A stretch of DNA of 64,000 bases from Escherichia phage EC6. A model generated the notes under the pieces. That model saw only the letters and a list, made by a program, of their open reading frames with translations. It had not been told where the DNA came from and ran no database searches. The DNA lies in the sequence record JX560968; one strand, written 5' to 3'. The translations under genes and the position numbers were made by a program. Positions 12,096 through 12,880 of the stretch are shown here, in pieces (position 1 is the stretch's first letter; each line of letters starts with the position of its first letter).

Positions 12096-12180
12096 GTTTT
12101 GACAGAAGACCGATTACAGCAAACAACTTTTACTTTTCGCGCATAGAAAACATAAAAAGCTTGGTCTGGTCATTAAGAAT

Positions 12181-12257
12181 CGCGGGTATAGAGAAAGGGC
12201 GTCTCACATGTCTCATTAGCATGGTAACGGTTGGTTCGACTCCAACACCCGCCTCCA
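12181..12257 (+). tRNA. tRNA with CAT anticodon (Met, fMet or Ile2-type)
   Basis: T-arm GTTGG-TTCGACT-CCAAC, anticodon stem CATGT/GCATG with loop CTCATTA, D-stem GAGA/TCTC; position 1-72 appears unpaired (C-C). Confidence 0.5.
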
Positions 12258-12285
12258 AATTTACAGAAGACCGTTTACAGCAAAA
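12258..12285 (+). repeat. repeated tRNA-leader element AATTTACAGAAGACCGTTTACAGCAAAA (copy; others near 12101, 12658, 12739)
   Basis: An identical 26-28-nt sequence occurs at 12739-12766; diverged copies at 12101-12127 and 12658-12679; each is followed 35-100 nt later by a GGTCTGG motif (12163, 12323, 12726, 12871). Confidence 0.7.
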
Positions 12286-12342
12286 TTTAATGAAATTTTT
12301 AGCGGAAAAAATTGAAAGATACGGTCTGGTAATACTAAATAT

Positions 12343-12419
12343 GGTTAGGAAGCACATAAGGTATGTGCGGTCGCCTGTTAAGCGAATGGCACAGGGTTCG
12401 AATCCCTGACTAACCGCCA
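12343..12419 (+). tRNA. tRNA-Asn (anticodon GTT)
   Basis: Acceptor GGTTAGG/ACTAACC, anticodon loop CTGTTAA, T-arm CAGGG-TTCGAAT-CCCTG, CCA encoded. Confidence 0.6.
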
Positions 12420-12427
12420 AATTAAAT

Positions 12428-12515
12428 GTGTCGTTATCCCGTAGATGGTAGCGGTGGGGACTGTAAATCCCTTGTCATTGAGACTCGGTAGGTTCGACTC
12501 CTACACGGCACACCA
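12428..12515 (+). tRNA. tRNA-Tyr (anticodon GTA), long variable arm
   Basis: Acceptor GTGTCGT/ACGGCAC, anticodon stem GGGGA/TCCCT with loop CTGTAAA, long variable arm, T-arm GTAGG-TTCGACT-CCTAC, CCA encoded. Confidence 0.65.
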
Positions 12516-12520
12516 ATAAA

Positions 12521-12597
12521 GGCTATGTAGTTTAACTGGAGAAAATACTCCCCTGTCACGGGAGATGATGTGAGTTCAAGTCTCATCGTAGCCGCCA
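12521..12597 (+). tRNA. tRNA-Asp (anticodon GTC)
   Basis: Acceptor GGCTATG/CGTAGCC, anticodon stem CTCCC/GGGAG with loop CTGTCAC, T-loop TTCAAGT, CCA encoded. Confidence 0.6.
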
Positions 12598-12880
12598 ATT
12601 TTGAGAGGGCTATTTAGCCCCTCCCTTAAAGGGTTCTTACGAGTATCCTTTAAAGGAGCAGAAGACCAAATACAGCAAGTTACTTAAAATTTCAAGCCAA
12701 TTCAATTTTGAAAAATTTAAAACTTGGTCTGGCTCAACAAATTTACAGAAGACCGTTTACAGCAAAACTTAAACAATCTATTTCTCCGGTAAAGAAAAGG
12801 CGAAGGTTCGATTACTTCACTCGGCAGATGTCGAGTTGGTGTAATGGTAGCACTTAAGATGATAAACAACGGTCTGGTAA

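What the first reader, a model, noticed from the sequence alone, without database searches (positions are those of the whole stretch)
12101..12877. Four copies of a ~25-nt leader (ACAGAAGACCGTTTACAGCAAAA), each paired with a downstream GGTCTGG, upstream of tRNAs
Copies at 12101, 12258, 12658 and 12739 (two are identical over 26-28 nt) are each followed 35-100 nt later by GGTCTGG (12163, 12323, 12726, 12871), so AGACC can pair with GGTCT as a short hairpin. Three copies end 12-15 nt before a tRNA 5-prime end. They may be duplicated tRNA leaders with processing or regulatory signals, or a small repeated element that spread along with tRNA genes.
Basis: seen in the sequence. Interest (0 to 1): 0.45.

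Follow-up and report, generated by a model that had tools for sequence, protein, structure and literature searches.

The report
Y-RNA-like partners of phage Ro60-like protein
The four repeats are most likely genes for small structured RNAs that partner the Ro60-like protein encoded just upstream; the same RNA design sits beside this protein's gene in many phages and bacteria, and it closely matches the unexplained "Class I" RNAs of social amoebae.

Summary
Four units (12100-12172, 12261-12332, 12656-12735, 12743-12880) each carry ACAGAAGACCnnnUACAGCAA and a downstream GGUCUGG. These four are the only + strand GGTCTGG sites in the 64-kb window.

The window is a Felix O1-like phage. The units are not tRNA leaders. 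The core is a 7-bp terminal helix (A-U, then an invariant G-C), single-stranded UWCAGCAA just 3' of the 5' strand, a variable insert, and a 3' CUG.

A covariance model of this module finds it beside genes for the upstream protein's family (Pfam DUF2828+DUF7788). All 55 hits in 75 other phage loci are on the gene's strand, as are 61 of 62 in 80 bacterial loci. The helix covaries heavily. About half of the phage loci have no tRNA genes.

My structure model of the protein matches only Ro60 over its full length. RtcB flanks the gene in 20 of 80 bacterial loci. Unit 4 holds a permuted tRNA-like domain, as in YrlA.

I conclude these are Y-RNA-like partner RNAs of a Ro60-like protein, forming an RNA family not in Rfam. 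Binding and discrete transcripts are inferred, not shown.

A model built only from dictyostelid Class I RNAs also finds these units (best E 1e-5). Whether dictyostelids encode a DUF2828 protein could not be tested.

The parts
10354..11769 (+). Gene for a 471-aa Ro60-like protein (alpha-solenoid ring plus vWA domain; Pfam DUF2828 + DUF7788; PHROG 850 'RNA-binding protein'). It is the proposed protein partner of the RNAs.
   Evidence: Pfam hits at 2.4e-29 and 3.3e-43; PHROG 850. AlphaFold2 model with pLDDT 89.7. The ten best Foldseek PDB matches are all Ro60, E 7e-8 to 2e-6, TM 0.5-0.66, over the full length. The orthologue Bas63 gp130 was reported as Ro60-like (10.1101/2024.10.10.617714).
11788..11907 (+). 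Two sigma-70-type promoter-like sites (11788-11816 and 11879-11907) ahead of the tRNA/RNA array. The next such site is at 13273-13301, and no terminator-like site lies between them on the + strand.
   Evidence: These are consensus matches only, and the count does not exceed that in shuffles.
12100..12172 (+). Unit 1, short form. Outer helix 12100-12103/12169-12172; internal loop AGA/G; core helix 12107-12113/12161-12167; UACAGCAA at 12115-12122; A/U-rich insert; 3' G at 12168. It lies between tRNA-Glu (ends 12095) and tRNA-Met (starts 12181).
   Evidence: Model R1 gives 50.0 bits, but this unit is in the seed. Rfam Dicty_Class_I_RNA 19.7 bits. Dicty-only model R2 17.5 bits.
12261..12332 (+). 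Unit 2, short form. Outer helix 12261-12264/12329-12332; core helix 12268-12274/12321-12327; UACAGCAA at 12276-12283. It lies between tRNA-Met (ends 12257) and tRNA-Asn (starts 12343).
   Evidence: R1 54.2 bits, seed member. Rfam Dicty_Class_I_RNA 16.9 bits.
12656..12735 (+). Unit 3, short form. Outer helix 12656-12659/12732-12735; core helix 12663-12669/12724-12730; UACAGCAA at 12671-12678.
   Evidence: R1 43.7 bits, seed member. R2 13.6 bits.
12743..12880 (+). Unit 4, long form. Outer helix 12743-12746/12877-12880; core helix 12750-12757/12868-12875; UACAGCAA at 12758-12765. The insert 12768-12858 is a circularly permuted, class-II-like tRNA mimic. It comprises an anticodon-stem-like helix 12768-12772/12854-12858, a variable-arm hairpin 12781-12797, a T arm 12802-12818 (loop UUCGAUU), a 7-bp acceptor-like helix 12819-12825/12830-12836 closed by a 4-nt loop, U8-like 12837, and a D arm 12839-12853 (AAUGGUA).
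   Evidence: Read from the sequence and the fold. On 9 homologues 92.4% of cells pair, and 11 pairs change on both sides versus 2.6 in shuffles. The acceptor-like helix has 4 of 7 compensatory pairs: ACUCGGC/GUCGAGU here, ACCCUUC/GAAGGGU in Mordin, ACACGUU/GGCGUGU in Sf15. A long unit in another phage (L073 5715-5780) hits Rfam YrlA at 26.7 bits.
12881..13020 (+). A further structured RNA next to unit 4: a roughly 24-bp stem enclosing a branched interior. One branch, CAGAC-CUUAAGCAA-GUCUG, resembles a minimal version of the unit. Membership of the system is tentative.
   Evidence: MFE -45.2 kcal/mol, z -5.2. It is conserved in Felix O1, wV8, Mordin and Sf15 with 8 compensatory pairs. R1 does not detect it.
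11934..13257 (+). The tRNA genes among which the units are interspersed: Pro, Glu | Met | Asn, Tyr, Asp | Lys, Met, Ile. Their processing is the proposed route by which the unit RNAs are released.
   Evidence: ARAGORN and Rfam tRNA hits. The processing step is inferred.

Best explanation
The four repeats are genes, or processed segments of the tRNA operon transcript, for small non-coding RNAs. These RNAs are the cognate partners of the Ro60-like DUF2828/vWA protein encoded directly upstream at 10354-11769. They are the counterpart of Y RNAs for a second, sequence-distinct branch of Ro60-fold proteins.

Each RNA has a constant module and a variable module. The constant module is a 7-bp helix joining the two ends, with a near-invariant closing A-U, an invariant G-C, and a 3' G. 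Single-stranded UWCAGCAA follows one or two nucleotides after the 5' strand. I take this module to be the protein-binding site. The variable module is an A/U-rich loop in units 1-3 and a permuted tRNA mimic in unit 4.

The units are transcribed from the sigma-70-type promoters at 11788 and 11879 together with nine tRNAs. RNase P and the 3' tRNA-maturation nucleases acting on the flanking tRNAs would release them.

By analogy with Ro60-Y RNA complexes, the RNA would gate or tether the ring protein to RNA substrates or to host enzymes (exonuclease, RtcB-type repair). In a phage that carries its own tRNA set, this would plausibly deal with damaged or cleaved tRNA during host defence.

Shown here: the repeats, the covarying helix, the conserved motif, the strict gene linkage, the Ro60 fold of my protein model, the RtcB neighbourhood in bacteria, and the tRNA-like domain. 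Inferred: physical binding, discrete stable RNAs, the processing route and the biological role.
For: (1) The repeats are real and non-random.

(2) The neighbouring protein has a Ro60 fold. The model has pLDDT 89.7. The top 10 PDB matches are all Ro60, including Thermus phage phiLo Ro60, Xenopus and human Ro60, and D. radiodurans Rsr. The best BFVD matches are named VWFA-, DUF7788- or DUF2828-domain proteins; TROVE and Ro-like phage proteins follow as more distant hits. The Bas63 orthologue was independently reported as Ro60-like and as countering the ppl defence.

(3) In 80 viral loci encoding relatives at 39-98% identity, exact TACAGCAA occurs 119 times and concentrates on the gene's strand next to the gene. 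With stem and CUG required, the count is 91 on the + strand against 4 on the - strand.

(4) In the seed alignment of 26 units, 99.5% of helix cells pair, 6 of 7 pairs change on both sides, and the covariation score is 0.987 against 0.215 in shuffles and at most 0.235 with slid partners.

(5) Model R1 finds nothing else in the window at E<0.1. In 75 other phage loci, 55 of 55 hits are on the gene's strand, 45 lie within 500 nt of the gene, and 45 loci are hit. On those hits 99.2% of helix cells pair and 7 of 7 pairs are compensatory.

(6) Independent replication in bacterial genomes: 61 of 62 hits are on the gene's strand, mostly 0-700 nt upstream of the start codon.

(7) About half of the phage loci with units have no tRNA genes, so the RNA follows the protein gene and not tRNAs.

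(8) RtcB is adjacent in 20 of 80 bacterial loci, on the same strand in 19. An example is L112: rtcB, two RNAs, then DUF2828. This mirrors Salmonella rsr-yrlBA-rtcBA.

(9) Unit 4 carries a covariation-supported tRNA-like domain with YrlA topology. Canonical T arms occur in 15 of 54 long units and 0 of 44 short ones. A long unit in L073 hits Rfam YrlA.

(10) There is precedent: bacterial and phage Ro60 genes have Y RNAs encoded within about 2 kb, several per locus, one of them tRNA-like (PMC4201824). Thermus phage phiLo Ro60 binds two phage-encoded Yrl RNAs (PMC12135203).
Against: No expression, end-mapping or binding data exist for these RNAs. Stability and protein binding are inferred from gene linkage and analogy.

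The canonical Ro60-binding signature of Y RNAs (GNCGAAN0-1G or CGAA in a bulged helix) is absent. No unit reaches any Rfam Y_RNA or YrlA threshold.

The protein has no Pfam TROVE hit and no sequence-level PDB hit. Its relation to Ro60 rests on a predicted fold with TM 0.5-0.66.

Seed units were chosen for having a stem, which inflates the pairing statistics. The strand asymmetry, the slid-partner control and the non-seed hits are the unbiased parts of that evidence.

In 30 of 75 phage loci R1 finds no unit at E<=0.1.
Confidence: 0.8

Rival explanations
1. The units are cis-acting protein-binding or regulatory sites within the operon or mRNA transcript, not separate stable RNAs. They could be autoregulatory operators for the DUF2828 protein in its own 5' or 3' UTR, or landing pads that recruit it to the tRNA precursor as a processing or folding chaperone.
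For: The units are always on the gene's strand. In most loci they lie immediately downstream of the stop codon or upstream of the start codon. No dedicated promoter or terminator for individual units was seen in the window.
Against: There are several copies per locus with different inserts. The long forms have elaborate tRNA-like domains. In tRNA arrays the units are flanked by tRNAs whose processing must cut them out. The architecture matches dictyostelid Class I RNAs, which are free, abundant RNAs of about 60 nt. Y RNAs of M. smegmatis are likewise processed from a precursor next to rsr.
Confidence: 0.12
2. This is the first reader's view: the units are duplicated tRNA leaders carrying RNase P/E processing or regulatory signals, with no dedicated protein partner.
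For: Units 1 and 2 end 8-10 nt before a tRNA 5' end (their GGTCTGG sites end 11 and 13 nt before it), and all units lie inside the tRNA operon. In several other phages the units are also interspersed among tRNAs (L009, L058, L060, L067).
Against: Units 3 and 4 do not precede tRNAs. The 16 later tRNAs in the window have no such leader, and R1 finds nothing there. About half of the unit-bearing phage loci contain no tRNA gene. The bacterial copies sit between rtcB and the DUF2828 gene. The conserved single-stranded octamer and the invariant closing pairs are not features of known RNase P or RNase E signals (own knowledge).
Confidence: 0.04
3. The units are a miniature mobile or selfish repeat (MITE-like, with AGACC/GGTCT as terminal inverted repeats), or they are parts of real minus-strand small ORFs as annotated in some GenBank records.
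For: They have short inverted termini and occur in multiple copies. A 69-nt spacer between tRNA-Asn and tRNA-Tyr, present in some related phages and absent here, has a related 5' sequence. GenBank records annotate minus-strand hypothetical proteins over the units: Felix O1 ORF91 and ORF94, and FM4b CDS_0048-0050.
Against: All four copies are syntenic across Felixounavirus and Mooglevirus. There are no other copies in the 64-kb window. The orientation is strictly single-stranded relative to one gene across hundreds of genomes. Helix pairs change by compensation, which indicates RNA-level selection. The annotated ORFs overlap tRNA genes on the opposite strand. A 1-nt indel inside unit 4 (Felix O1 and FM4b versus the window) shifts the frame, and the ORF ends at a different stop.
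Confidence: 0.02

Closest known systems
Bacterial Y RNAs (YrlA, YrlB, Yrn1/2) with Rsr/Ro60, e.g. the Salmonella rsr-yrlB-yrlA-rtcB-rtcA operon (Chen et al. 2014, PMC4201824)
   Same: There are several small RNAs per locus, encoded within about 2 kb of and on the same strand as a ring-shaped Ro60-fold/vWA protein. A terminal helix joins the 5' and 3' ends. One RNA per locus carries a tRNA-like domain with T arm, D arm and a closed acceptor-like stem (unit 4). Other RNAs are shorter. RtcB is a frequent neighbour in bacteria. At least some are processed from a precursor.
   Different: The protein belongs to different Pfam families (DUF2828/DUF7788, not TROVE) and shares only 12-17% identity with Ro60 in the structure-based alignments. 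The conserved RNA signature is single-stranded UWCAGCAA next to an unbulged 7-bp helix, not GNCGAAN0-1G/CGAA in a bulged helix. No unit reaches an Rfam Y_RNA or YrlA threshold.
Thermus phage phiLo Ro60 with phage-encoded Yrl1 and Yrl2 (PMC12135203)
   Same: A phage encodes its own Ro60-fold protein and adjacent partner RNAs. That protein is the best PDB structural match to my model (9l5y, 9kop). The proposed role is hijacking host RNA enzymes to escape defence.
   Different: phiLo Ro60 is a canonical TROVE protein and its RNAs carry the CGAA motif. There are two RNAs upstream of the gene and they are not embedded in a tRNA array.
Dictyostelid Class I RNAs (Rfam RF01414; Kjellin et al. 2021, PMC7919456)
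   Same: The layout matches point for point. Both are about 60 nt. Both have a 6-7-bp helix joining the ends that starts with an invariant G paired to the C of a 3' CUG. The motif (CC)UUACAGCAA follows the 5' strand after one or two nucleotides. The insert is variable, and a purine-rich, often A-rich stretch commonly precedes the 3' strand. The invariant positions are the same in the two independent alignments: the 5' G, C6, C9 and A10 of the motif, and the G of the 3' CUG; the C and U of that CUG are invariant in one alignment and at least 70-90% conserved in the other. Occasional long members have a T arm (asu_can_20, ppa_can_99). A model built only from Class I RNAs finds the phage and bacterial units specifically.
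   Different: Class I RNAs are eukaryotic nuclear genes, each with its own DUSE promoter, present at 9-39 copies per genome. Their known binder is the RRM protein Rnp1A. They were reported as unique to Dictyostelia. The window's units score below Rfam's gathering score (19.7 and 16.9 versus 41.5 bits). No DUF2828 partner has been shown in dictyostelids.
Small stable RNAs inside phage tRNA clusters (T4 species 1 and 2, rnaC/rnaD; T5 stable RNAs) - from own knowledge, not tested here
   Same: They are non-tRNA stable RNAs co-transcribed with phage tRNAs and released by tRNA-processing enzymes. Their function is unknown.
   Different: No sequence or motif comparison was made here. T4 is not known to me to encode a DUF2828 protein.

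Membership tests
Y RNA / YrlA (Ro60-associated ncRNA; Rfam RF00019, RF02553) | Encoded close to, and on the same strand as, a Ro60 orthologue | tested here: inconclusive
   The units lie 331-1111 nt downstream of a gene whose product has the Ro60 fold in my model. By sequence, however, the protein is DUF2828/DUF7788, not TROVE, and it has no PDB sequence hit.
Y RNA / YrlA (Ro60-associated ncRNA; Rfam RF00019, RF02553) | Conserved Ro60-binding signature GNCGAAN0-1G (CGAA) in a bulged terminal helix | tested here: not met
   The conserved element is UWCAGCAA beside a continuous 7-bp helix. Only the Felix-group extension ACAGAAG loosely resembles it, and that extension is not conserved in other phages.
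Y RNA / YrlA (Ro60-associated ncRNA; Rfam RF00019, RF02553) | At least one RNA per locus contains a tRNA-like domain | tested here: met
   Unit 4 has a T arm, a D arm with A14/G18G19/A21 equivalents, a closed 7-bp acceptor-like helix, and compensatory changes.
Y RNA / YrlA (Ro60-associated ncRNA; Rfam RF00019, RF02553) | Reaches the Rfam gathering score | tested here: not met
   There was no Y_RNA or YrlA match in the window even at E<=10. The best match in a related locus was 26.7 bits against a gathering score of 69.
Y RNA / YrlA (Ro60-associated ncRNA; Rfam RF00019, RF02553) | Physically bound and stabilised by the Ro60 protein | not testable with these tools
   Needs RIP/CLIP, EMSA or a co-structure.
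Dictyostelid Class I RNA (Rfam RF01414) | Short helix joining the 5' and 3' ends, with an invariant 5' G paired to the C of a 3' CUG(U) | tested here: met
   G-C is invariant in 26 of 26 seed units and 51 of 52 hits, and the 3' G is invariant. The Class I alignment shows the same invariants.
Dictyostelid Class I RNA (Rfam RF01414) | 11-nt motif CCUUACAGCAA adjacent to the 5' strand (T3, C6, C9, A10 and A11 near-universal) | tested here: met
   The units read GAUUACAGCAA, GUUUACAGCAA, AAAUACAGCAA and GUUUACAGCAA, which is 8-9 of 11 positions. C6, C9, A10 and A11 are present in all four units and T3 in three.
Dictyostelid Class I RNA (Rfam RF01414) | Length about 42-65 nt (median about 60) and GC 32-41% | tested here: met
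   The core of units 1-3 is 61-69 nt with GC 0.30-0.38. Unit 4 is a long form, comparable to DdR-66 and DdR-67.
Dictyostelid Class I RNA (Rfam RF01414) | Reaches the Rfam gathering score (41.5 bits) | tested here: not met
   The window units score 19.7 and 16.9 bits. The best related phage unit scores 30.7 bits. With my own Dicty-only model the best score is 36.8 bits, E 1.3e-5.
Dictyostelid Class I RNA (Rfam RF01414) | Own DUSE promoter about 60 nt upstream; a dictyostelid nuclear gene | tested here: not met
   These are bacteriophage genes inside a sigma-70-type tRNA operon.
DUF2828-associated RNA (family defined here by model R1) | 7-bp terminal helix (A-U, G-C, then covarying pairs), UWCAGCAA 0-3 nt after the 5' strand, and a 3' CUG | tested here: met
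   All four units show it. Helix covariation is shown.
DUF2828-associated RNA (family defined here by model R1) | Same strand as, and within about 2.5 kb of, a DUF2828/DUF7788 gene | tested here: met
   In the window the gene ends at 11769 and the units lie at 12100-12880. The family-wide counts are 55 of 55 and 61 of 62 on the gene's strand.

The most novel reading that the evidence does not exclude
The phage and bacterial DUF2828-linked RNAs and the dictyostelid Class I RNAs are one RNA family, or a tightly convergent one recognised by homologous proteins. Under this reading Class I RNAs are Y-RNA-like ligands of a Ro60-fold (DUF2828/TROVE-type) protein in social amoebae. Class I RNAs have been of unknown function since 2004 and were reported as unique to Dictyostelia. 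The protein-RNA pair could have been shared between bacteria or phages, giant viruses of protists (which encode DUF2828 proteins) and eukaryotes. If this holds, the function and protein partner of Class I RNAs become directly testable.
Probability: 0.4. Interest if true: 0.85.

Novelty: new variant of a known kind. Interest (0 to 1): 0.72.

Why it matters
It gives DUF2828/DUF7788 a concrete model. This is a very large protein family of unknown function, with 5816 clusters at 50% identity, found in phages, bacteria, giant viruses and plants. The model is a second kind of Ro60-type ribonucleoprotein with its own recognisable partner RNA.

It also explains the recurrent non-tRNA spacers in Felix O1-type tRNA arrays. 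It shows that some annotated 'tRNAs' and minus-strand 'hypothetical proteins' in phage records are probably these RNAs.

For phage biology, it links a protein reported to counter an anti-phage system (Bas63 gp130 versus ppl) to a set of RNAs that can now be deleted or mutated.

The unexpected match to dictyostelid Class I RNAs turns an open question into a binding experiment: what these abundant, developmentally regulated RNAs bind and do.

Tried and rejected
(1) Functional permuted tRNA gene. Unit 4's T arm, closed acceptor and D arm order first suggested a permuted tRNA as in Cyanidioschyzon. I rejected this because the acceptor is closed by a loop with no free CCA end, the 'anticodon arm' is the conserved protein-module helix, and the other three units have no tRNA parts. 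The topology is that of YrlA.

(2) Phage-specific promoter, terminator or attenuator. The region has ordinary sigma-70-like promoters, the units have no T-runs, and the helix covaries.

(3) Known RNA family. Rfam at lax thresholds gave only sub-threshold Dicty_Class_I_RNA hits, plus one YrlA hit in a related locus.

(4) Sequence-level link of the protein to Ro60. There was no TROVE Pfam hit and no PDB sequence hit. Only the fold comparison worked.

(5) Finding a dictyostelid DUF2828 protein. The afdb50 library was unavailable. Literature searches for DUF2828, PF11443 and UCP015417 found plants and mimivirus-like hits but nothing for Dictyostelium. A motif search of the truncated D. discoideum and D. 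firmibasis proteomes in the Kjellin supplement found only unrelated vWA proteins. The protein search tools list only top-ranked hits, all of phage or bacterial type. This question stays open.

(6) A literature search for the octamer returned only primer sequences.

(7) Searches for Felix O1 transcriptome or ncRNA papers found nothing relevant.
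Full report
**What is there**

The window comes from a Felix O1-like phage (Felixounavirus). The region 11700-13700 matches 310 phage records, and 213 of them cover at least 80% of it. ARAGORN finds 25 tRNA genes between 11934 and 17190, all on the + strand.

- The 23-mer matches three times with at most 2 mismatches, against none in shuffles.
- The core AGAAGACCNNNTACAGCAA matches exactly four times.
- GGTCTGG occurs on the + strand of the entire 64-kb window only at the four reported positions, each downstream of one 5' motif.
- The combined pattern never occurs in shuffles.

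Folding shows more than the 5-bp AGACC/GGUCU hairpin. Each unit has a 7-8-bp core helix (AGACCGU/ACGGUCU, AGACCGA/UUGGUCU, AGACCAA/UUGGUCU). It also has an AGA/G internal loop and a 4-bp outer helix whose sequence differs between copies but stays complementary: UGAC/GUCA, UUAC/GUAA, GAGC/GCUC.

One point of the observation needs correcting. Only units 1 and 2 lie just upstream of a tRNA. Unit 3 is followed by unit 4, and unit 4 by a 146-nt structured element.

**The neighbouring gene**

The ORF 10354-11769 ends 331 nt before unit 1. By sequence it is Pfam DUF2828 plus DUF7788 and PHROG 850 'RNA-binding protein'. It has no TROVE hit and no PDB sequence hit.

An AlphaFold2 model built on 44 homologues has pLDDT 89.7. 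Foldseek against the PDB returns Ro60 as all ten best matches: Thermus phage phiLo Ro60, Xenopus and human Ro60, and D. radiodurans Rsr. These align over the full length with E 7e-8 to 2e-6 and TM 0.5-0.66. Only isolated vWA domains follow.

A preprint on phage Bas63, a Felixounavirus, had noted that the orthologue gp130 resembles Ro60, lies upstream of the tRNA stretch and counters the ppl defence system. The authors guessed that some annotated tRNAs might be Y RNAs, but they did not identify any RNA.

**The RNA follows the protein gene, not tRNAs**

I fetched 80 viral loci encoding relatives at 39-98% identity. The exact octamer TACAGCAA is over-represented there (119 occurrences). It concentrates on the gene's strand just beside the gene, always a few nucleotides after a sequence whose complement lies 10-190 nt downstream and is followed by G. 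When a stem and a CUG tail are required, 91 candidates fall on the gene's strand and 4 on the other strand.

An alignment of 26 short units from diverse phages gave these results:
- The invariant positions are the stem's G, the C, G, C and A of U-A-C-A-G-C-A-A, and the C and G of the 3' CUG.
- The 7-bp helix pairs in 99.5% of cells, and 6 of 7 pairs change on both sides.
- The covariation score is 0.987, against 0.215 for shuffles and at most 0.235 for slid partners.

Because I selected units for having a stem, the unbiased evidence lies in the controls and in new hits. The covariance model R1 performed as follows:
- In the window it finds the three short units, finds unit 4 partially, and finds nothing else below E 0.1.
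- In 75 non-Felix phage loci it finds 55 hits, all on the gene's strand, in 45 loci. Of these, 45 lie within 500 nt of the gene. The helix pairs in 99.2% of cells and all 7 pairs are compensatory.
- In an independent collection of 80 bacterial and MAG loci it finds 62 hits, 61 on the gene's strand, mostly 0-700 nt upstream of the start codon.

About half of the unit-bearing phage loci contain no tRNA gene at all. In the rest, the DUF2828 gene heads a tRNA array and the units are interspersed among the tRNAs, as in this window. All four units are syntenic in Felix O1, pEP20, Mordin and Sf15.

**tRNA-like domains**

Unit 4's 102-nt insert reads, in order:
- a helix CUUAA...UUAAG;
- a hairpin resembling a long variable arm;
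- a T arm with loop UUCGAUU;
- a 7-bp acceptor-like helix closed by a 4-nt loop;
- U8-G9;
- a D arm GUGU-AAUGGUA-GCAC.

This is a circularly permuted tRNA mimic, the topology described for YrlA.

Across nine homologues 92.4% of cells pair, and 11 pairs change on both sides against 2.6 in shuffles. The acceptor-like helix is rewritten twice: ACUCGGC/GUCGAGU here, ACCCUUC/GAAGGGU in Mordin, and ACACGUU/GGCGUGU in Sf15. The G-A mismatch in this window's T stem is private; relatives have CCUUC.

Other phages show the same topology. L073 hits Rfam YrlA at 26.7 bits, and L009 also has it. Others use an alternative arrangement in which D, anticodon and T arms sit inside the loop and the conserved helix takes the acceptor position. 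ARAGORN even calls these tRNAs (L048, L060). Canonical T arms occur in 15 of 54 long units and in none of 44 short ones.

**Functional context**

In 20 of 80 bacterial loci an RtcB RNA ligase gene flanks the DUF2828 gene, on the same strand in 19. The RNAs sometimes lie between the two genes, as in L112. This is the arrangement of the Salmonella rsr-yrlBA-rtcBA RNA-repair operon.

In the window, sigma-70-like promoters lie at 11788 and 11879, and no terminator-like site occurs before 13257. The units should therefore be co-transcribed with nine tRNAs and released by tRNA end-processing. That step is inferred.

**Interpretation**

The best-supported reading is that units 1-4 are Y-RNA-like partner RNAs of a Ro60-fold protein. 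Each has a constant binding module (terminal helix plus UWCAGCAA) and a variable effector module.

Membership of the Y RNA family proper fails on two defining features: the CGAA-type binding motif and the Rfam thresholds. I therefore file this as a new RNA family that works like Y RNAs, not as a Y RNA. Binding, RNA stability and biological role are inferred.

The main rival is that these are cis-acting sites in the transcript and not free RNAs. It cannot be excluded without expression data.

**The unexpected link to amoebal Class I RNAs**

The only Rfam family that touched the units was Dicty_Class_I_RNA (RF01414). It scored 19.7 and 16.9 bits on units 1 and 2. It then scored 30.7 and 26.1 bits on units in two unrelated phage loci, with no off-target hits.

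Class I RNAs have the following published features:
- They are about 60 nt long.
- A short helix joins the ends.
- An 11-nt motif CCUUACAGCAA lies beside the 5' strand.
- The 5' G is invariant and pairs with the C of a 3' CUGU.
- Their function is unknown, and they were reported as unique to Dictyostelia.

Their published sequences include GUUGAC-C-UUACAGCAA...GUCAAC-UG, GGUCUC-AUCACAGCAA...GAGACC-UG and GAUCUC...GAGAUC-UG. A few long members carry T arms. These share the layout of the phage and bacterial units, for example (A)GGAUCG-a-UACAGCAA...CGAUCC-UG and (A)GACCGU-U-UACAGCAA...ACGGUC-UG. They also share the same invariant positions.

I built a covariance model from 30 Class I RNAs of five dictyostelids, with no phage sequence in it. 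Searched over 948 kb of window and phage loci, it gave 41 hits at E<=10. Of these, 39 are on the gene's strand and about 37 coincide with R1 units. The best hit is 36.8 bits at E 1.3e-5, and nine hits reach 25 bits or more, the candidate threshold used by the Class I authors. On the bacterial loci the best hits are again DUF2828-adjacent units, at 32.5 and 30.5 bits.

The hypothesis was formed on the window and tested on other loci, so this is a fair replication.

DUF2828 proteins exist in plants and in mimivirus-like sequences. DUF2828/DUF7788-fold proteins occur in giant viruses of protists. I could not determine whether dictyostelids encode one. The link therefore remains a well-supported resemblance whose cause, common descent or convergence on a homologous binder, is open.

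**Verdict**

The finding is a new RNA family that partners a large Ro60-like protein family of unknown function (5816 clusters at 50% identity). I found no description of it in Rfam or in the literature I could search.

Noticed in passing
window 12881-13020: A structured element of about 146 nt lies directly after unit 4. It has a roughly 24-bp stem and a branched interior (z -5.2). It is conserved in Felix O1, wV8, Mordin and Sf15 with 8 compensatory pairs. One branch, CAGAC-CUUAAGCAA-GUCUG (CAAACC-CUUUAGCAA-GGUUUG in Mooglevirus), resembles a minimal unit. It may be a fifth partner RNA.
   Followed up: partly
window 13506-13588: A tRNA-like RNA with a 7-bp acceptor stem, a T arm and a 3' CCA, but an irregular long middle region. 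ARAGORN does not call it, and the Rfam tRNA-Sec match is weak (23.3 bits). Some related records annotate it as a pseudo-tRNA or tRNA-OTHER.
   Followed up: partly
window 13200-13504: Weak sub-threshold Rfam matches to permuted tmRNA (32.4 bits against a gathering score of 47, E 9e-4) and to tmRNA (16 bits). They lie downstream of the promoter-like site at 13273.
   Followed up: no
window 12420-12427 versus L002 1027-1096 and L086 726-794: Other Felixounaviruses and Mooglevirus Sf15 (and, from its tRNA coordinates, Felix O1) carry a 69-70-nt spacer between tRNA-Asn and tRNA-Tyr that is absent here and in wV8. It contains AGAAGCGAUUAC (compare unit 1's AGAAGACCGAUUAC), a T-arm-like hairpin UAAGGUGCAAGUCCUUA, and CCUG. 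It may be a decayed unit.
   Followed up: partly
L048 5753-5824; L060 5776-5846: ARAGORN calls 'tRNA-Thr' and 'tRNA-Asn(att)' inside units whose conserved helix replaces the acceptor stem. RNAs of this family can therefore be mis-annotated as tRNAs in phage genomes.
   Followed up: partly
L087 (Felix O1) 1718-1969 and 2513-2743; L001 (FM4b) 615-830, 1305-1641; window ORFs 12130-12420(-) and 12717-12971(-): GenBank records annotate minus-strand hypothetical proteins across the units and across tRNA genes. These are probably spurious ORFs lying over RNA genes.
   Followed up: partly
L093, L103, L111, L112, L118, L124-L126, L134, L140, L145-L148, L156-L159, L162, L164: RtcB-like genes flank the DUF2828 gene in 20 of 80 bacterial loci, on the same strand in 19. 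No RtcB-like ORF was found in the phage loci or the window.
   Followed up: yes
L042 7924-7978 (also L077 7656-7699): A near-threshold Rfam NsiR1 match (37.7 bits against a gathering score of 39) overlaps the 3' end of the second unit and extends about 40 nt beyond it. It is probably a terminator hairpin ending the gene-plus-RNA transcript.
   Followed up: no
L031 1317-1767: A phage-encoded tmRNA gene (tag ANTNFALAA) lies a few kb upstream of the DUF2828 gene in one viral contig.
   Followed up: no
window 12814: This window's unit 4 has A where all eight compared relatives have C, at the T-stem position equivalent to tRNA C61. This creates a private G-A mismatch.
   Followed up: yes
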